Below the pieces are notes generated by a model that had not been told where the DNA came from, did no database searches, and worked only from the letters and a program-made list of their open reading frames with translations. Both the position numbers and the translations under genes were made by a program. From Candidatus Thorarchaeota archaeon (lineage in GTDB: Archaea; Asgardarchaeota; Thorarchaeia; Thorarchaeales; Thorarchaeaceae), in the NCBI GenBank assembly GCA_046482545.1, contig JAWOEX010000039.1, positions 32,001 through 96,000 of the forward strand: a stretch of 64,000 nt of DNA. The letters run 5' to 3'. Numbering within the stretch: position 1 is the stretch's first letter; each line of letters begins with the position of its first letter. Shown here one piece after another: positions 27,825-35,775 of the stretch.

Positions 27825-28709
27825 CTACAAGCCTAGTCGGTGCAATTCCTTTTCAAATAGGTTTAACCTTTGCTCCAAGTCTATTCGTTCCCTAGCGAAT
27901 ACTGCAGGATCGATTTTCCCTTCTCTCATTTGCGTATCCAGAGCACTAAGTTCTTGCTTAATTTCACTGACCCGTTCCTGCACAACATCAATACGAGAAA
28001 CAGCATGGCTCTCCTGATCCGATGTAGGCCTTTGCGCGGAAACAATTTGCCCATCTTGAATTCTTAGGATACGATCACACTGCCTAGCCTGACTGGGGTC
28101 GTGCGTTACCATTAAGACGGTCTTTCCGAGTTCCTTGTTCACGGTATGAAGATGATCAATTACAACTGCACCTGTTCCCGTATCCAAGTCACCCGTGGGC
28201 TCATCTGCAAGGAGAACCTGTGGGTCATTTGCTAGCGCAGCGGCAATTGCAACCCTCTGCCTTTGTCCACCAGAAAGCTCGTCGGGTTTGTGCTTCATTC
28301 GTTCCCCCAGGCCCATGATGGATAACAGATGAGTCGCGCGCTCCTTCCGATGTTTTGAAGACCTATTTGCGGCAAGCATCGGTAGTTCGACATTTTCATA
28401 GGCAGTTAGAGTTGGAATGAGATTGAGTTCTTGGAATATGTGTCCGACAACATCCCTTCTTAGCCTACCCAAATCTCCAGGGCTTGAGTTGGTGACATCA
28501 TGGCCAGCAACTATCGTCTGCCCTGCAGTAGCTCTCGTTATACCGCCAAGTATGTTCAGCAGGGTGGTCTTTCCTGAACCACTCGCACCGACAATGGCCA
28601 CCATCTCTCCTTCGTCAACCTTCATCGACAAACCTCTCAGGGCTTGTACCTCGACCTCTCCAACCCTATAGACTTTCACAAGGTCTTTAGCTTCAATGTA
28701 CGACTTCAT
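27825..28709 (-). CDS. ABC ATPase, LolD/MacB type, with C-terminal helical extension
   Basis: GASGSGKT, LSGGQRQR, LADEPTGDLD, VTHD. Confidence 0.95.
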   Translation of the reverse strand: MKSYIEAKDLVKVYRVGEVEVQALRGLSMKVDEGEMVAIVGASGSGKTTLLNILGGITRATAGQTIVAGHDVTNSSPGDLGRLRRDVVGHIFQELNLIPTLTAYENVELPMLAANRSSKHRKERATHLLSIMGLGERMKHKPDELSGGQRQRVAIAAALANDPQVLLADEPTGDLDTGTGAVVIDHLHTVNKELGKTVLMVTHDPSQARQCDRILRIQDGQIVSAQRPTSDQESHAVSRIDVVQERVSEIKQELSALDTQMREGKIDPAVFARERIDLEQRLNLFEKELHRLGL

Positions 28710-28715
28710 TTTTTG

Positions 28716-31499
28716 TCACCTAAGAACATCTACCTTTGCTTCAGGTTTCCTTGACTCCCAATATACAGGCAGTGCCGCAGCCAATATCACAGCAAGTACT
28801 ATCAATATCATGTACAACCCTGCTAATCCTCCAAGCACGACTCTCGGTTGTATTAATCCACTAATGTTTTGAGACTGAAGATTCGTATTTCCAAATATCT
28901 GAATCACACCTACAGCAGATCCAAGGAGAAGTGAGAATCCAACCATCACCATGACTTCTGCGAATAAAGTCTTGAATAACTGCCATTTGCTGAATCCTCT
29001 CACAGTGAGAAGAGCTATTTCTGATTCCTTCTCTCGGAGCGTAAGTATGATGACCAAACCTGTTCCAACTACTGCAAGTATCACGGCAAAAACAACCGCA
29101 ACCCATTGAATCTTCGTCGTTCCACTTTCGATTGGTTGCTCATAATGATTCTTGATCTCAGATGTGTATGAGTAGCTTCGATAGATACTTTCTGGAAAAT
29201 AAGACATGAACTCCTCCTGCAACTTCGTTCCGTTGGTTGTGGCCGGATTGTCTATCAGGATGTTGGCAGTAGCAGCATCAACTAATCCAGTATCATTGAG
29301 GAACGAATAAGAAACATACGATGGATAAGAGCCCGCCGCTGAGACAGCAAAATCCTCCACGTATCTCTCTAGGAATGACTGGTATCCAATTAAACCGACA
29401 ATCCTTAACCTATGCGAGGAAGAGCTCAAAGGCCCCTTCACGTAGATGTCATCGCCAACCTCCAGACCTAGAACATCTGCCATTCTAACGGAGAGAATGA
29501 TACCGTCACCCCTTTCGAGCTCGGACATTACATCCTTTACATCCCCGATGAACCATTGAGATTCATAGAACGCGGTTTCCAGCCATTCTTGGGGTTTTAT
29601 TCCCCGTGTGGAGATATCTCGCTCTCCAGAAGTCAAACTAAGCCGATACTCGGGTGTCGCTGAAAGAACGCCTTCTTCAGCTGTTATATTTTCGAGTATG
29701 CCCCCAGTATTGACCCCATCTTTAAGCTCCAAGCGAATATCCGCACCCACATCATACTTTGCCTCCCTATCAACCCGATCATATTCGGAGAAAAGACTAC
29801 CTATGGAGAATACACCGTATGAGACAATGAGAGAAACAATGAAAACGAGAGCGGCATTTCTTGCAGGATTTCGCTTCACATTCCGAGTTGCTATCTTTCC
29901 AAATGCTCCAAAGAATCGTTTTCCAGCATTTACAACGGTTTCTTGAAACTTGGTCGATCCACGCATGAATATCTTGGTTGCACCATACAAGAAGAACAGG
30001 GGGCCTAGAGTGTTTAGAACTCCATCAACAGCAAGCCAAGCTATGATGGCAATAGCCAGTATCCAGTTGCCCGGACTCAAGCCTGTAAGAAGAACGTTCA
30101 TATCGATACCGAGTAACCAGACAATTATCTTGTAAGTACCGAGCACAAACGTGATTGTAGGGAGGAGTCGCTTGTATTCGGAGGTTTCTTCAACATACAC
30201 GTAATGCTTGAGAGCATCGAGGAGCTCCAATCTAGACGCCCTGTTAGCAGGTCTCCAGACTGATATCAGAGCGAGAACCATGCCGAGGATAACCGATATT
30301 ACTATGGATATGGGGTTGTTTGTTATCACGGATAGGTAGCTCATTCCAGATGGTGCTATAACGAAGAATGATATCGCTGTTCCAAGGAATGTCGACACAG
30401 CGCCGGCGAGTGCCCCAACTACAACGCCTTCAATCAGAAACATATTCCGAATAGTTCCTCTTTTGTAGCCCTTCGTGAGGAGAAGTCCGATTTCCCGTCT
30501 CCGAAGATTGTAGCCCACATCGCTCACCATAGTTCCGGTGAAATAGGCCATGAAGAAAATGGGCAGAGAAAGGCCCATGAAAGTGATATTCATCATCAAG
30601 GATATCATTAGGTACATCTGTAAAGGCAAAGTCAGACGCGAATCAACAGTTGCACCAAAGCGTTCTATCCGGGATAAGAGTGCTTGGCGCGTATCTTGAA
30701 CCCTGGTAATCGATGCATCGATGTTGTATGGATCAATAAGTGTATCCCTGTCGATTCTGCAATGTATGCTATTGAGAACGCCATATAAGGTCGAATTGTT
30801 GACAGTTGAACATGCATCCAACACTGGGGCCATAGTCAAATCCCAATCTGCAACGAATGCGTTATACACGAAGGGCTGTCCAAGGCCATATGCTTCAAGA
30901 AGCAGGTTCATATTCAATCTCTGAGTAAGCGCGTAAAGATGGTCCTCTGAAACAGAAACATAGCCTGCTACTGTCATATTCCAGTTGATTGTCTTTTCGT
31001 AAGGTGGAGTAGATAGCTGAACCGATATCGGAACGGTAATTTCCTGCCCAATCTCAAAGAGAGATTCGTTTTGTGAGCCTTGAATGACATATGTTTCATT
31101 AGGTCCCAAGGATGTCGCCCCTGAAACTACTTGGATTCCCTGAGCCATGTTGCTATCCCATTCGAGTCCATAGACCTGAAACTGAGTTCCCGAATTATTG
31201 TAATCCCAAGAGATTTCAGTCGTTCTTGTATGTGAAACGATGTGTGAGACTGCTGATATTTCCGCCTCCACCTTCTCAAAGGTGTCAGCAGTCCAGTTGG
31301 AGCCTTGTCGATCGTTAGCGACAAAATCATAGACCACGCCTTCAATAGCACCATCTAACGCATCTCGTGCCAGGAGATCAGCTGATACATTAGTACTAGC
31401 AAAAAAGGTTGTAGCTACGAGGACACCGATTGTTAGAGCAACAAATAATCTATAGCTCCGTACTACTCGTTTGAGAGCATATTTGAACATGATGCCCAC
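28716..31499 (-). CDS. Large FtsX/MacB-like ABC permease (duplicated)
   Basis: RRREIGLLLTKG and RESEI-like (KESEIALLTVRG) FtsX motifs; two large extracellular loops. Confidence 0.9.
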   Translation of the reverse strand: MGIMFKYALKRVVRSYRLFVALTIGVLVATTFFASTNVSADLLARDALDGAIEGVVYDFVANDRQGSNWTADTFEKVEAEISAVSHIVSHTRTTEISWDYNNSGTQFQVYGLEWDSNMAQGIQVVSGATSLGPNETYVIQGSQNESLFEIGQEITVPISVQLSTPPYEKTINWNMTVAGYVSVSEDHLYALTQRLNMNLLLEAYGLGQPFVYNAFVADWDLTMAPVLDACSTVNNSTLYGVLNSIHCRIDRDTLIDPYNIDASITRVQDTRQALLSRIERFGATVDSRLTLPLQMYLMISLMMNITFMGLSLPIFFMAYFTGTMVSDVGYNLRRREIGLLLTKGYKRGTIRNMFLIEGVVVGALAGAVSTFLGTAISFFVIAPSGMSYLSVITNNPISIVISVILGMVLALISVWRPANRASRLELLDALKHYVYVEETSEYKRLLPTITFVLGTYKIIVWLLGIDMNVLLTGLSPGNWILAIAIIAWLAVDGVLNTLGPLFFLYGATKIFMRGSTKFQETVVNAGKRFFGAFGKIATRNVKRNPARNAALVFIVSLIVSYGVFSIGSLFSEYDRVDREAKYDVGADIRLELKDGVNTGGILENITAEEGVLSATPEYRLSLTSGERDISTRGIKPQEWLETAFYESQWFIGDVKDVMSELERGDGIILSVRMADVLGLEVGDDIYVKGPLSSSSHRLRIVGLIGYQSFLERYVEDFAVSAAGSYPSYVSYSFLNDTGLVDAATANILIDNPATTNGTKLQEEFMSYFPESIYRSYSYTSEIKNHYEQPIESGTTKIQWVAVVFAVILAVVGTGLVIILTLREKESEIALLTVRGFSKWQLFKTLFAEVMVMVGFSLLLGSAVGVIQIFGNTNLQSQNISGLIQPRVVLGGLAGLYMILIVLAVILAAALPVYWESRKPEAKVDVLR

Positions 31500-31593
31500 G
31501 CTATTAACTCAGCTGAGGACAGAGAGAAATAAAAAGTCAACGTATAAAGCATCTATCGATTCTAGATTCCCGCCTGAGTTTCTACTGGAATCC

Positions 31594-32145
31594 TTAGGTA
31601 CCCGACATTCTTCGATCATAGAAACATGCCAGTAGAATGACTATGACGGCTACTACAGAACTCGATAGAACAACAGGCAAAAATGTGATGTGGGGGTCGA
31701 CTTGAGTAGTAGTAAGAATCCTCAGATCAATAGAACGCGAATAGCTTGTGGCTGAGTTGTTTGCCTTGTCGAAAGCCTGTATGAACAAGTTGTATGTCCT
31801 GTTCATTTGCAGAGCCGGGATTTCAGAGATGTAAAGTGAACCATTGAAACCCAGCGGATGTTTGATTCTGTCAGCTGATGACGGGTTCACAACCAATGAC
31901 ACATTTCTAACACCAGAATCTCTATCAGACACTTCGGCCCATGCTTCGAAATCCTCACCTCTTTTTGCTTCCAGACTGAAGTTCCAACTGGAAATCTCAG
32001 GTCTTACGGTATCCTGTGTTAGAACAAGAGACTTCTCTCCTTTGCTTGATTTTACTCCATCTAGGATGGGGAAAAAGAGATTCAACAACAATGCTGAAAG
32101 AAGAAAATAGCAAATCATGGTTGCGTCTCTGTTGCTTTTTGACAT
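31594..32145 (-). CDS. Small membrane-anchored protein with an Ig-like domain
   Basis: N- and C-terminal hydrophobic helices; DxxSGVRNV and AFDKANN motifs. Confidence 0.7.
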   Translation of the reverse strand: MSKSNRDATMICYFLLSALLLNLFFPILDGVKSSKGEKSLVLTQDTVRPEISSWNFSLEAKRGEDFEAWAEVSDRDSGVRNVSLVVNPSSADRIKHPLGFNGSLYISEIPALQMNRTYNLFIQAFDKANNSATSYSRSIDLRILTTTQVDPHITFLPVVLSSSVVAVIVILLACFYDRRMSGT

Positions 32146-32232
32146 CTGAATCACAGTTTCGTAGTTAATCATTGCTTTTTAGAAAATGCTTCTACGCATG
32201 AGTTCATCGATTTCTTCAAAGAACTAGAAGGT

Positions 32233-32382
32233 GGGCACAGCGGTGGTAAGCAACCGGCGTTGCCGCGCCACCACCTAATTTGTTTTGCACGCCGCGTTCC
32301 AGGAAACCTATTCTTAGGCTCCTGCAAGACTCTAGCCGCACGCCAGAGCGAGAGTCGGCTCACGTTATAGCCCGCTGTGCCC
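32233..32382 (-). ncRNA. Unclassified structured RNA candidate (150 nt)
   Basis: Perfect 11-bp terminal inverted repeat GGGCACAGCGG/CCGCTGTGCCC, 61% GC (91/150), several internal hairpins with G-U pairs favouring the minus strand. Confidence 0.6.
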
Positions 32383-32588
32383 TTTATACTCGTATAGACG
32401 ATAGCACAATTTGCAGTTAAATTCTTGGGTACACGCGCATAAGTACCCCGTGAATGATTGCAAGCATAGAAGCGTAAAGTATGCGTTATCAGCGACTTCT
32501 TGAACGTCAAATCCGTAAGTATACGACATGACTACCTGAATCCCGGACAACAGAGTTGCAGCATCAGAAATGATGGTAATCCTGATTC

Positions 32589-35243
32589 CTATCTCATGGG
32601 TAAGACAATTTGGAACGTGGCGCCTGTGCTCGGTGGAGTATCAACCAATTCCATTGAACCCCCCAGTCCCTCCACTATCTGTTTAGACAGATAAAGGCCC
32701 ATTCCTCCACCTCTAGTCGAAGTTCCTCTTTCAAAAAGCTTGTCTCGGATTTCTTGTGCAACCCCGGGCCCGTTATCAGAGACCAAAGCCTCTACCATTC
32801 CATTTTTTTCAGAAATCCTTACTCTAATTGTTGGATTCTCTTCGAGGAAAGCCAGACTATTTCTAAAGAGATTCTCAAAGACCATTGGTAGAAGACGGCT
32901 TGCAGGTATTCTTGCTTCTCTAGCATTTGGTCCTACATCAATATCCATGGTGAGTCCTGGCTCTTCTTTTGTAGTTTGGGCAGCAATCGCATCAATGAGA
33001 TTGTATAAGTTTGTTTCTACTGATTCCGCGGGACTACTCAAAGTGGTCAGCAGGCTATTCATTCGCTCGCAAACAGCGTCAGCTGATGAAATAGTCTTCT
33101 TGACCGCTTCATCACTATCCGTCAATAGCATCCTCAGAATATCAAAATTTCCTAGTATTGCACTAAGATCGTTCTTCAGATCATGATGCAAAAGTGAAGC
33201 ATATAACTCAAGATCGCGCTGCTGTTCATCCCTCCTTTGCTGGGTACGTCGATGCTTTATGTGGTCACCAATTTGTAAAGCCATCGCAGATAGGAGATTA
33301 ATCTCTTCAGCTAAGAATGGTCCATGATCTGATTCAGACCTCATCTCCAGATAACAAACCTCGAGAAGCCCTATTCTTTCTCCTTTGCACCAAATATCCT
33401 CGGTCAATGTCCATTCAGTTTTTTCGAAATTGGACGTAGTGTATTCATTTCCTTCAATTATGATTCGGACACATGCTACACTCGGATATTGAAAAGCATC
33501 TCTTACAACTTGAGTAACAGATTGCATTGCTTCGGAAAGGGGAATGTCAATCTTATTTGAAAGATTTGCCATTGCATATAACGCCTTCATCTCCTTCATA
33601 CGTTCACGAAGCTCATGTGTTGTTTCTCTAAGCACACGTTCGGCTTCCCTTCTCTCAGTAACATCAACAAAAACACCTATCGATCCATTAGTATTTCCAG
33701 CAGCATCGAGCCTAGGAGCTGCCGTCAGATGAACATCCCTCTTCTCGCCGCTCGAATGAATAATCTGAATCTCATAAGAGGATTCAACGCCTTTTCCCCT
33801 TCTTCGGGTTCCCGCAGAAATCCGGGCTGTATATTCAGGAGCTACGTAATCCAGTAGCGAGGTTCCAACGAGTTGTTCTGGGTCATATCCAAATATCTCT
33901 CCCAAGGCCTCATTGGCTAGCTCAATTCGTTCATCCAAGCCCGCAATCGCGACACCTTCAGGTAGCACTTCAATCAAACGCCGATATCGTTCCTTGCTGG
34001 CACGCAGTGCCTCCTCTATACTCTTTTGGGCAGAGATATCAACAAAGCTTTCAAGAAGGTATTCGTGTTCCCTTAGAGTAATACGAGTAACTGTCTTCAG
34101 AATTGGTATTCTCCGTCCATCTTTAGTTCGACATACCCGTTCAGAATTGTCCATAGTTTGACCCAAATCAGTAATTGGGCATTCATTCTCTTGAGCCACA
34201 CATAAGCAATTGGTGCATAGTTCGCCCTCGAGTTCGTCCTTACTGTAACCAGTAATATCAGATACAGCAGAGTTGATTTTGATAATCCGTTTGGTTAGAG
34301 GATCGACCAACACCAATCCCGCTGAAATTGATTCAAGTATCTTTCTAAGTTGTTTCTCACTTTCTTTGAGCTTCTTTTCTGCCCTCTTTCTGGCTGTGAT
34401 ATCTATTGATATCCCTACAACTCCAGTAACATTGCCCTGTTCGTCCTGAAATGGAATTTTGCTTGTACTAACCCACCGCTTTTCGCCCTCTACTGTCCAT
34501 GGCTCCACCACGTTTAGCTTCGGTTCCCCGCTTTCAATCACCTCTAAATCATCCTGAAGATACGAATCGGCTTGCTCTTCAGGATATAGGTCAAAGGTGG
34601 ACATACCTTGAAGATTTTCTTTTGACATCCCATGGGCTTCAGCAAGATATTCATTTACACGAATAAACCGCCCCCGTTTATCCTTGTAATAGACAAGAGC
34701 AGGGATGGCATCAAGGATTCTCTCAAATTCATGACTAAGCTCTCTATACTCGTTCTCAGATTGTCGCAGTCTCATTTCGAGTTCTTTCTGCTGAGATATA
34801 TCTAACAACTGTATAAGATATCCTATTTCTTCACCTGTTCGTGGAGATGTCAGGAGAGCCATTCCAGTCTCTACAAAGGCGACATCTGTTCTCGTAGTTG
34901 GGTAAAGTCCAAGAGCTCTAACTTTTTGAAAATCGATTTCAGATTGGTATCGGATGCTTTCTCCATTGCGCAATCGATCCTTCATGTCCTGAGACATGTT
35001 TGGATCTGAAAAGATGTTGAACCCCCGCAAATCTTTGAAAGAAGAAACTCCTGCAAATTCCATCAGGGCGTCGTTAGCAGCGATAATATTCCCATCCAAA
35101 TCAAAAACATTCGTCGGAATCGGAGTTCGTTTGAATACAGAGTGCAGCCATTCAAATTCTACGAGTTTTCCTTCTGAGTTCTCTGTGCTTGAATTCCTTG
35201 GTTTTGTGTCATTTTCATCGGAATTGGAGTTATCTTCACCCAT
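32589..35243 (-). CDS. Multi-PAS (+GAF-like) sensor histidine kinase (probable start ATG 35243)
   Basis: Four PAS domains; HHDLKN, ENLFRNS, DNGPG, GGGMGLYL. Confidence 0.92.
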   Translation of the reverse strand: MGEDNSNSDENDTKPRNSSTENSEGKLVEFEWLHSVFKRTPIPTNVFDLDGNIIAANDALMEFAGVSSFKDLRGFNIFSDPNMSQDMKDRLRNGESIRYQSEIDFQKVRALGLYPTTRTDVAFVETGMALLTSPRTGEEIGYLIQLLDISQQKELEMRLRQSENEYRELSHEFERILDAIPALVYYKDKRGRFIRVNEYLAEAHGMSKENLQGMSTFDLYPEEQADSYLQDDLEVIESGEPKLNVVEPWTVEGEKRWVSTSKIPFQDEQGNVTGVVGISIDITARKRAEKKLKESEKQLRKILESISAGLVLVDPLTKRIIKINSAVSDITGYSKDELEGELCTNCLCVAQENECPITDLGQTMDNSERVCRTKDGRRIPILKTVTRITLREHEYLLESFVDISAQKSIEEALRASKERYRRLIEVLPEGVAIAGLDERIELANEALGEIFGYDPEQLVGTSLLDYVAPEYTARISAGTRRRGKGVESSYEIQIIHSSGEKRDVHLTAAPRLDAAGNTNGSIGVFVDVTERREAERVLRETTHELRERMKEMKALYAMANLSNKIDIPLSEAMQSVTQVVRDAFQYPSVACVRIIIEGNEYTTSNFEKTEWTLTEDIWCKGERIGLLEVCYLEMRSESDHGPFLAEEINLLSAMALQIGDHIKHRRTQQRRDEQQRDLELYASLLHHDLKNDLSAILGNFDILRMLLTDSDEAVKKTISSADAVCERMNSLLTTLSSPAESVETNLYNLIDAIAAQTTKEEPGLTMDIDVGPNAREARIPASRLLPMVFENLFRNSLAFLEENPTIRVRISEKNGMVEALVSDNGPGVAQEIRDKLFERGTSTRGGGMGLYLSKQIVEGLGGSMELVDTPPSTGATFQIVLPMR

Positions 35244-35775
35244 GGTACAAAACCTCTCAATCGCTGCTTCAGCCAAGATTTCTCGGTTATGAAAGGAACT
35301 AATCTGGAACTAGATTATGGGAACATCCCATAAGGTTCTATCTATACAATATTGGCAGGTGGTAGGAACTCTAGGAACATCATTCATACAAGGCATGGCC
35401 CGAAGTGTACAGGCACAAAACCATAGAAAAAACCTTGTGTGGTCAGAGACCCTGTGCAAAAAGTCATACCAAGATAGCGGAGTGATTCATATTATTGTTC
35501 CTGATTGTCAATATCCGTGCGTGTGAATAGCCAATTGACAGCTCATTTGAGCTTCTCACAACAATTCCGCCTACTTTTTCCACAGAGCTTATTTTTTCTT
35601 TTCTTTGGTCTTGAAGACCGATTATGAGCATTCGTTATGGTCTCTCTGCCGCCCTGGCCATTTTGGAAAAGAAACACCGATGTAAGAGATTAATGTCGCG
35701 CTCTTGCGAACCGCTAAAGCACTTATCTCTAAAGATGTCAGTTGTTAGTAGACTATGAGTAGAAATTCAAAACAA

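What the first reader, a model, noticed from the sequence alone, without database searches (positions are those of the whole stretch)
32233..32382. Unclassified 150-nt GC-rich structured RNA
Seen: a 61% GC island in a ~440-bp intergenic gap, closed by a perfect 11-bp stem. Minus-strand internal elements are AGCCG/CGGCU, GACUCU/AGAGUC (interleaved, so a pseudoknot or alternative fold), CAGGAGCCUA-AGAA-UAGGUUUCCUG, GUCUUGCA/UGCAAAAC, and a 3' arm GGUGGUGG...UUACCACC containing either GCG-GCAA-CGC (GNRA loop) or GCAAC/GUUGC. It lacks tRNA T-loop, 5S loop C/E, SRP helix 8 and RNase P CR-I signatures as far as I can see. Inference: a stand-alone ncRNA, possibly a new Asgard family.
Basis: partly seen in the sequence, partly recalled or inferred. 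Interest (0 to 1): 0.75.

Follow-up and report, generated by a model that had tools for sequence, protein, structure and literature searches.

The report
New spliced cloverleaf RNA in Thorarchaeota
This is a previously undescribed 153-base folded RNA that nearly every genome of one family of Asgard archaea keeps as a single copy, and in three species it carries tRNA-type introns, which marks it as a long-lived RNA with a cellular job that nobody has yet identified.

Summary
The feature is real. Window 32230-32382 (minus strand) is a stand-alone structured RNA gene. A covariance model finds it in 67 of 85 other genomes of the family (inferred Thorarchaeaceae), in all 16 genera and as one copy each. 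It was not found in 124 other Asgard genomes. There is no Rfam match, and 5S, SRP and RNase P genes lie elsewhere in the genome. Covariation (32 of 44 pairs compensatory) gives a four-way cloverleaf on a long closing stem. Two loop motifs are essentially invariant (GGCGUGC; AGGUGGUGGCGCGG) and can form a 5-bp kiss. The gene has a BRE/TATA promoter, the same stem+ACC tail as this lineage's SRP RNA, and a U-rich end. One metatranscriptome holds it as a lone contig. In three genomes, 29-30-nt bulge-helix-bulge-type inserts interrupt the invariant loop; removing them restores the motif exactly, and two nested inserts imply an order of splicing. Function is not shown. My best guess is a tRNA-shaped RNA acting in trans on the translation apparatus. 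The scan had not noted it on other DNA.

The parts
32230..32382 (-). The RNA gene, 153 nt from G1 to the 3' ACC (147-164 nt in intron-free homologues)
   Evidence: Conservation starts at GGG and ends at CCCACC, both 100% in 76 sequences; CM hits
32414..32428 (-). Archaeal promoter: BRE (CCAAGAA) followed by TATA box (TTTAAC), about 39 nt upstream of G1
   Evidence: BRE+TATA motif 30-45 nt upstream in 44 of 65 homologues against 6.2 in shuffles; function inferred
32372..32382 (-). P1 closing stem, 5' strand (11 bp here, 9 bp consensus)
   Evidence: 5 of 9 pairs compensatory, 98% of cells paired
32233..32243 (-). P1 closing stem, 3' strand
32358..32363 (-). P1b 5' strand (pairs with 32246-32251); closes the four-way junction and is followed by an invariant unpaired C at 32357
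   Evidence: 4 of 4 pairs compensatory; C 100% conserved
32328..32356 (-). P2 hairpin: variable stem with 9-nt loop L2 at 32338-32346, containing invariant GGCGUGC (32338-32344)
   Evidence: 8 of 10 pairs compensatory; loop motif 100% in 76 sequences
32300..32327 (-). Junction UYG plus P3 hairpin with hexaloop NARAAN (32310-32315); invariant C-G pair beside a G.G/G.A apposition at its base
   Evidence: 7 of 8 pairs compensatory; conservation table
32252..32298 (-). P4 helix (32289-32298 with 32252-32260) closing the large loop L4 (32261-32288)
   Evidence: 8 of 10 pairs compensatory
32262..32276 (-). Near-invariant L4 motif AGGUGGUGGCGCGGC. GCGCG (32264-32268) can kiss CGUGC of L2; GGUG stays single-stranded
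   Evidence: G32275 to C32262 are 95-100% conserved and A32276 86%; the kiss is possible in all but never varies, so it is unproven
32273..32274 (-). Intron site 1 (AGG|UGG): empty here, holds a 30-nt BHB-type insert in G035 (L195) and G201 (L196)
32270..32271 (-). Intron site 2 (AGGUGG|UGG): empty here, holds a 29-30-nt BHB-type insert in G013 (L054) and G035 (L195)
32218..32232 (-). Invariant single-stranded ACC tail (32230-32232) followed by a pyrimidine-rich terminator-like tract
   Evidence: ACC 100%; U-rich downstream in 65 homologues; same stem+ACC end in the lineage's SRP RNAs; an adapter-joined RNA end at 32231 in run X3
27825..32172 (-). Usual downstream neighbours, probably not part of the RNA: a small membrane protein of no Pfam family (31594-32172), an FtsX-type permease (28716-31499) and an ABC ATPase (27825-28709)
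   Evidence: Pfam; synteny across genera but often broken by inserted genes

Best explanation
A housekeeping-type stable RNA that acts in trans. SHOWN: one conserved gene per genome, vertically inherited, with a four-way cloverleaf (P1b, P2, P3, P4) on a long interrupted closing stem. INFERRED, LIKELY (about 0.85): it is transcribed from its own BRE/TATA promoter, ends at stem+ACC like this lineage's SRP RNA, loses a short variable 5' leader, and, where introns are present, is spliced by the tRNA splicing endonuclease in a fixed order (site 1, then site 2). INFERRED, PLAUSIBLE (about 0.6): L2 and L4 form a 5-bp loop-loop helix and P4 stacks on P1b, which gives a tRNA-like or SRP-Alu-like elbow. 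INFERRED, SPECULATIVE (about 0.35): this shape docks on the translation apparatus and presents the invariant single-stranded GGUG(G) to a CACC-ending partner. The partner would be either the 16S 3' tail (AGGUGGU pairs 7 bp with AUCACCU) or the ACCA end of uncharged tRNA, so that the RNA parks ribosomes or senses tRNA charging. The confidence given is for the whole chain.
For: 67 of 85 family genomes, 16 of 16 genera, one copy each; one copy in this genome at E<=10. Pairing in 94.7% of cells, 32 compensatory pairs, covariation score 0.47 against 0.20 in shuffles and 0.07-0.10 in slid controls. The RNA tree groups by genus. Promoter motif 44 of 65 against 6.2. SRP RNAs of six genomes end in stem+ACC. 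Run X3 holds a lone contig at 32231-32364, depth 30, with nothing else in 3 kb and an adapter joined at 32231. Inserts: removal restores AGGUGGUGGCGCGG exactly; each has an 8-10-bp inner helix in exact BHB register and 3 of 4 central pairs with its own site, 0 of 4 when swapped; the second G035 insert scores 1 of 4 before and 3 of 4 after the first is removed; shuffle P<=0.001 each. Two EndA paralogues are present in the complete host genomes. tRNAs and the 16S rRNA of this genome carry inserts of the same size class. The next gene is convergent in G018 and G033 and unrelated in several others, which favours action in trans. The G000 16S ends in GGAUCACCUCC and most tRNA genes end in CACCA or CGCCA.
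Against: No partner, binding or activity was shown. The kissing helix and the GGU/ACC pairing never vary, so covariation is silent on them. GGUG is only 4-7 nt, and several CACC-ending RNAs fit it, including the RNA's own tail. Complementarity of the invariant loops to the assembled rRNA is at chance level. RNA evidence is from assembled contigs with no strand, and in three of the four runs the flanking genes are also covered, so DNA carry-over is not excluded. The central BHB helices are the relaxed 3-of-4 class, which is common by chance when boundaries are loose (10.64898/2026.10.13.758758). Splicing itself was not observed.
Confidence: 0.4

Rival explanations
1. A trans-acting stable RNA whose invariant loops form a catalytic or ligand/protein-binding core unrelated to translation (a ribozyme, or the scaffold of a lineage-specific RNP).
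For: Invariant bases cluster at the junction (C32357, UYG, G.G/G.A) and in L2/L4 while the stems vary freely, the pattern expected of active sites and binding pockets (general knowledge). All evidence for a stand-alone RNA applies equally.
Against: No match to any Rfam ribozyme or aptamer. No Ro60 (0 of 61) and no SmpB (0 of 21). No RNA-binding gene is consistently adjacent.
Confidence: 0.3
2. A cis-acting leader (riboswitch-like) that controls the downstream membrane-protein/FtsX/ABC operon, switching GGUGGUG between the loop and the G-U-rich pairing with the P4 3' strand.
For: It lies directly upstream of the operon's first or second gene, on the same strand, in about two thirds of 21 wide loci from many genera. 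An alternative 7-bp pairing is possible in 57 of 71 sequences. The downstream gene is covered in three RNA runs.
Against: The next gene is convergent in G018 and G033, up to eight genes are inserted before the operon, and the link is broken in G013. The fold is fully closed with a stable-RNA tail and a U-tract. Introns that need post-transcriptional splicing in the key loop fit poorly with a co-transcriptional switch (inference). X3 has the RNA without the gene.
Confidence: 0.15
3. A free, S-domain-less derivative of the SRP Alu domain (h1, h2, h3, h4 plus one extra helix) that blocks the ribosome's factor-binding site.
For: Same order of parts as the lineage's Alu domain: terminal helix, short GGGY/RCC helix, 1 nt, hairpin with a UUUG loop, hairpin whose loop holds GGCAA, 5-bp loop-loop helix, and an ACC tail (Alu anatomy from PMC4231752).
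Against: The Archaea_SRP model does not hit the locus at E<=10 and the new model does not hit the SRP gene. There is no helix 5 and no UGU turn, the junction is four-way rather than three-way, and the L2 5' bases vary without matching changes in GGCAA.
Confidence: 0.1
4. A non-autonomous mobile element, or the coding sequence of the 113-aa ORF (32169-32510) that spans it.
For: Terminal inverted repeat and GC island; an open frame exists in this genome.
Against: Single copy, fixed locus, vertical tree. No target-site duplication. Homologue lengths run from 147 to 164 nt without regard to frame, and changes are compensatory in stems.
Confidence: 0.01

Closest known systems
tRNA and tRNA-like RNAs (bacterial YrlA Y RNA, tmRNA tRNA-like domain)
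   Same: Cloverleaf four-way junction, loop-loop contact between the two arms that flank the middle arm (inferred), a terminal stem with a single-stranded ACC, and colonisation by BHB introns as in this lineage's tRNAs.
   Different: Twice tRNA size; no UUCRA T-loop, no U8, no 7-nt anticodon loop (a hexaloop instead); the gene does not encode the final A although nearly all of this genome's tRNA genes encode CCA; no Ro60 and no SmpB found; no reading frame.
Prokaryotic SRP Alu domain (PMC4231752)
   Same: Terminal helix joining the 5' and 3' ends, a short inner helix, two hairpins with a potential 5-bp loop-loop helix, and the same ACC tail as the lineage's SRP RNA.
   Different: An extra helix in place of the UGU turn, no helix 5 or S domain, and no model cross-hit in either direction. 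A complete SRP RNA is encoded elsewhere in the genome.
T-box antiterminator (UGGN pairs with tRNA NCCA)
   Same: A-rich run followed by AGGUGGU in a single-stranded segment; three UGGNG motifs in the invariant loops (resemblance from memory).
   Different: No stem I or specifier loop, no Rfam hit, no ACCGCG helix partner, and not upstream of synthetase or amino-acid genes.
BHB-intron hosts in archaea: tRNA, rRNA, a few mRNAs (PMC7714728; 10.64898/2026.10.13.758758)
   Same: 29-30-nt hairpin inserts in exact BHB register, nested and ordered.
   Different: The host is neither tRNA, rRNA nor mRNA. I found no report of such a host in the searchable library.

Membership tests
Any Rfam 15 family | Score at or above the gathering threshold | tested here: not met
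   0 hits in the window; best E 5.1 locally; 0 hits at E<=1 for five homologues
tRNA (including Sec, intron-containing and permuted forms) | T-loop UUCRA, U8, 7-nt anticodon loop, 7- or 9-bp acceptor joined directly to the junction | tested here: not met
   Absent from the 76-sequence profile; ARAGORN finds nothing; tRNA-Sec is encoded elsewhere
tmRNA | G3.U70 acceptor, T-loop, tag reading frame, SmpB partner | tested here: not met
   G3-C pair invariant; no T-loop; SmpB 0 of 21 genomes with working controls
Y RNA / YrlA | Ro60 (TROVE) in the genome | tested here: not met
   0 of 61 genomes, controls positive
Y RNA / YrlA | Bulged-C Ro-binding helix (GNCCGA / UUGAC) | tested here: inconclusive
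   GGGYCGA and UUGCCC resemble it, but GA pairs into P2 and the C sits in the junction by covariation
5S rRNA | Three-way fold with loops C and E; sole genomic copy | tested here: not met
   Canonical 5S lies on another contig; four-way fold here
RNase P RNA | CR-I and CR-V forming P4 | tested here: not met
   Canonical gene elsewhere, 156 bits; motifs absent
SRP RNA / Alu domain | Helix 8 and S domain; helix 5; UGU turn | tested here: not met
   Full SRP gene elsewhere; no cross-hits
SRP RNA / Alu domain | 5-bp loop-loop pseudoknot | tested here: inconclusive
   Possible in all sequences but invariant
Box C/D or H/ACA guide RNA | C/D boxes or K-turn, ACA tail, conserved guide complementary to rRNA | tested here: not met
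   No boxes; tail is ACC; the internal loop is the least conserved part; only chance-level rRNA duplexes
MITE | Many dispersed copies with target-site duplications | tested here: not met
   One copy per genome at a syntenic locus
BHB intron (the inserts) | Central 4-bp helix between two 3-nt bulges with flanking helices | tested here: inconclusive
   Exact register, 8-10-bp inner helix and site-specific central pairing, but 3 of 4 pairs (A.G at one end) in all four, so the relaxed class
BHB intron (the inserts) | Removal restores the conserved host sequence | tested here: met
   All four removals give AGGUGGUGGCGCGG
BHB intron (the inserts) | Splicing endonuclease encoded | tested here: met
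   Two PF01974 genes in G000, G013 and G035; one whole and two partial hits in G201
BHB intron (the inserts) | Excision in vivo or by EndA in vitro | not testable with these tools
Riboswitch | Always in the 5' leader of related genes; ligand-dependent switch | tested here: inconclusive
   Usually upstream of one operon but not always; ligand binding not testable

The most novel reading that the evidence does not exclude
A new class of universal housekeeping RNA of one Asgard lineage: an enlarged, spliced tRNA mimic that binds the ribosome or tRNA 3' ends by base pairing, which would give archaea an RNA-based ribosome-parking or tRNA-sensing system and be the first intron-bearing archaeal RNA that is not a tRNA, rRNA or mRNA.
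Probability: 0.3. Interest if true: 0.92.

Novelty: categorically new. Interest (0 to 1): 0.8.

Why it matters
Very few structured RNA classes beyond tRNA, rRNA, SRP, RNase P and guide RNAs are known in archaea, and I found none described for Asgard archaea in the searchable library. An RNA kept as one copy across a whole family, with freely covarying stems around invariant loops, behaves like a core cellular component. The inserts add two things. If they are spliced, they extend the known hosts of archaeal BHB introns to a new kind of RNA, which bears on the open question of how such introns arrive (10.64898/2026.10.13.758758). They also pinpoint the functional bases, because the loop apparently tolerates inserts only in a form that can be cut out precisely. 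The RNA is short and easy to make in vitro, so its structure, splicing and partners are directly testable without a culture.

Tried and rejected
Rfam scans and ARAGORN: nothing. Y RNA idea from the GGGYCGA motif: no Ro60. tmRNA idea: no SmpB, no T-loop. A leucine-anticodon reading of the P3 loop: rejected because the closing pair covaries and the loop has six bases. A multi-intron or permuted tRNA: no T-loop in any of 76 sequences. Loops complementary to specific tRNA acceptor ends beyond NCCA, or to rRNA: not found or at chance level. A suspected tandem copy upstream of L012: only a short GCCCACC look-alike. Integrase attachment-site duplication of the 3' end beside inserted genes: none convincing. 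Relatives of the inserts elsewhere in the family: only chance hits in coding DNA. Homologues outside the family: none by CM in 124 genomes, in 24 genomes with laxer filters or in the sister-family genome, and only chance-level pattern hits in 314 genomes; strongly diverged forms are not excluded. The metagenome scan added only family-type copies. The bacterial promoter/terminator scan does not apply. Literature searches for a prior description found none. Genomes without a hit: G027 has an assembly gap and G172 a contig end at the locus, G186 a contig-end fragment, and G011 and G012 lack a clear match to the neighbouring gene, so true loss is not shown. Regions without RNA-contig cover are not evidence of silence.

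Full report
OBSERVATION. The stretch is as described in its basics: 60.7% GC in a 45% window, an exact 11-bp terminal inverted repeat, and an intergenic position between a PAS histidine kinase gene (32589-35276) and a small membrane-protein gene, both on the minus strand. The minus strand folds better than all 200 shuffles (z = -3.8). Rfam and ARAGORN find nothing. The genome has ordinary 5S, SRP and RNase P genes on other contigs, so this is not a diverged stand-in for one of them.

HOST AND DISTRIBUTION. The genome is an Asgard archaeon: a near-identical protein is labelled Promethearchaeia. I infer Thorarchaeaceae, because one homologue lies on a contig of the SMTZ1 metagenome, which from my own knowledge is the source of the first Thorarchaeota genomes; the tools give no family name. 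BLAST found homologues in 23 of 36 family genomes. A covariance model raised this to 67 of 85, in all 16 genera, one full copy each. Several missing cases coincide with assembly gaps or contig ends at the locus. Nothing was found in 124 genomes of other families, with laxer filters in 24, or by a loop-motif pattern in 314. The RNA tree groups by genus, as expected for vertical descent.

STRUCTURE. Alignment of 24 and then 76 distinct sequences gives a fold different from the single-sequence prediction. P1 (9-11 bp) closes the molecule. After a variable internal loop, P1b closes a four-way junction with P2, P3 and P4. 32 of 44 pairs show compensatory change. 94.7% of cells pair and the covariation score is 0.47, against 0.20 for shuffles and at most 0.10 for slid registers. 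Stems are free in sequence, whereas these are essentially invariant: the terminal GGG/CCC, the 3' ACC, a junction C, the G and C-G at the base of P3, the L2 motif GGCGUGC, and the L4 motif GGUGGUGGCGCGGC. The proposed 3' arm, GNRA loop and AGCCG/CGGCU pairing are not the conserved fold. CGUGC in L2 can pair with GCGCG in L4 in every sequence, but the pairs never vary, so this kiss is inferred, not shown. With P4 running directly into P1b on the 3' strand, the topology is that of an enlarged tRNA cloverleaf.

GENE SIGNALS AND EXPRESSION. A BRE+TATA motif lies 30-45 nt upstream of G1 in 44 of 65 homologues (6.2 expected), and a U-rich tract follows the ACC. The variable promoter distance implies a leader of about 0-15 nt (inference). 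SRP RNAs from six genomes of the family also end in a stem followed by ACC, so the tail is best read as a shared stable-RNA end rather than as proof of a tRNA role; unlike nearly all of this genome's tRNA genes, it does not encode the last A. Six salt-lake metatranscriptome runs from three studies hold part of the stretch. In run X3 the only contig in 3 kb is 32231-32364 at depth 30, joined to adapter at 32231, one base short of the predicted end. This is suggestive only: contigs give no strand, and the other three runs also cover flanking genes.

INSERTS. Three genomes carry longer copies. G201 has a 30-nt insert at AGG|UGG, G013 a 29-nt insert at AGGUGG|UGG, and G035 has both. Removing them restores the invariant motif base for base. 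Each insert has the geometry of a bulge-helix-bulge intron: one base, an 8-10-bp hairpin, four bases that pair with positions -6 to -3 of the upstream exon, and two bases. The central pairing is 3 of 4 (always with an A.G), falls to 0 of 4 if the inserts are swapped between sites, and for the second G035 insert rises from 1 of 4 to 3 of 4 only after the first is removed. Shuffled inserts reach this geometry in at most 0.1% of trials, though most of that signal is the hairpin; the central pairing alone has a chance of 12-22% per insert. A recent preprint warns that the relaxed class is common by chance when boundaries may slide (10.64898/2026.10.13.758758); here the boundaries are fixed by the conserved exon. 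The hosts encode two EndA paralogues, and this genome's tRNAs and 16S rRNA carry inserts of the same size, the 16S one with a 4-of-4 helix. The two site-1 inserts are 20 of 30 identical (read) yet sit in two separate branches of the RNA tree, so either one gain with many losses or a transfer is needed. I put splicing at about 0.8. Reported EndA substrates are tRNA, rRNA and a few mRNAs (PMC7714728; the mRNA cbf5 from my own knowledge).

NEIGHBOURHOOD. The RNA usually precedes an operon of a membrane protein, an FtsX permease, an ABC ATPase and often an asparaginase-like gene. Up to eight unrelated genes, some convergent, are inserted between RNA and operon in several genera, and the link is broken in G013. 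Upstream genes vary. This looks like conserved gene order beside an independent RNA gene rather than a leader, but a cis role is not excluded.

HOW IT MOST LIKELY WORKS. Shown: gene, fold, invariants, single copy. Inferred with good support: independent transcription, stable-RNA ends and EndA splicing. Inferred with weak support: function. After the kiss, the only invariant bases left single-stranded are GGUG, present even in the shortest variant (L005). They are complementary to CACC, which ends the 16S rRNA tail (AGGUGGU pairs 7 bp with AUCACCU), most tRNAs, and the RNA itself. In a tRNA-like shape the RNA's own tail would be far from the elbow, so a partner in trans is more likely (inference). 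I therefore commit to a tRNA-shaped RNA that engages the ribosome or uncharged tRNA by pairing through GGUG, at about 0.35-0.4. A ribozyme or RNP scaffold is nearly as likely (0.3), a riboswitch-like leader 0.15, and a free Alu derivative 0.1.

COMPARISON AND NOVELTY. It fails the defining tests for tRNA, tmRNA, Y RNA, 5S, RNase P, SRP, guide RNAs and MITEs. It resembles tRNA mimics and the SRP Alu domain in topology only, with no model cross-hit. Library searches found no description; subscription papers are not covered. The scan's own notes hold only a re-reading of this same stretch. I rate it a new RNA class. The rating rests on family membership and on the unusual intron host; if its mechanism turns out to be tRNA mimicry of a known sort, 'new variant of a known kind' would be the fairer label.

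VERDICT. Real, conserved, undescribed in the sources I could search, probably expressed and probably spliced; function open. Interest 0.8.

Noticed in passing
G000 contig C2, about 1415-1445 (outside the window): The 16S rRNA gene carries a 30-nt insert with a 4-of-4 BHB central helix inside the conserved GAAGUCGUAACAAGG segment, the site of the common 1492R primer, which could hide this lineage from amplicon surveys.
   Followed up: partly
window 31672-31972: Three of four metatranscriptome runs have a contig with similar bounds inside the small membrane-protein gene, at higher depth than the RNA itself; either a well-expressed mRNA or a stable fragment.
   Followed up: no
window 31594-32172: Membrane protein with a conserved DTxRPEI motif and no Pfam family, found across the family beside the FtsX/ABC pair.
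   Followed up: partly
L546 and L547 (G031 contig C7): Two RNase P RNA-like genes 2.6 kb apart; the second scores lower and has a degenerate 3' conserved region.
   Followed up: no
L539 and L540 (G035): Two different SRP RNA genes in one assembly; may be contamination (7%).
   Followed up: no
L568-L571 (four genomes of genus g3): A conserved non-coding stretch of about 200-300 nt upstream of a gene that starts with a signal-peptide-like sequence; it contains a GCCAC motif faintly like a cobalamin riboswitch box, but has no Rfam hit at E<=1.
   Followed up: partly
L197:301-400 (G197): The 3' third of the RNA is missing between two copies of a 6-nt repeat; either a real deletion or an assembly error.
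   Followed up: no
window 32188-32207 and 32454-32473: An imperfect 20-nt inverted repeat (75%) flanks the RNA gene and its promoter; not seen as conserved, possibly chance.
   Followed up: no
window 32271-32376, run X5: One RNA contig from a variant strain appears to end at adapter right after GGUGG, the position of intron site 2; a single observation.
   Followed up: no
G000 tRNA set: ARAGORN finds no Asp, His, Lys or Trp tRNA in a 99%-complete genome, and several calls are mis-assigned, which suggests more tRNAs hidden by non-canonical introns.
   Followed up: no
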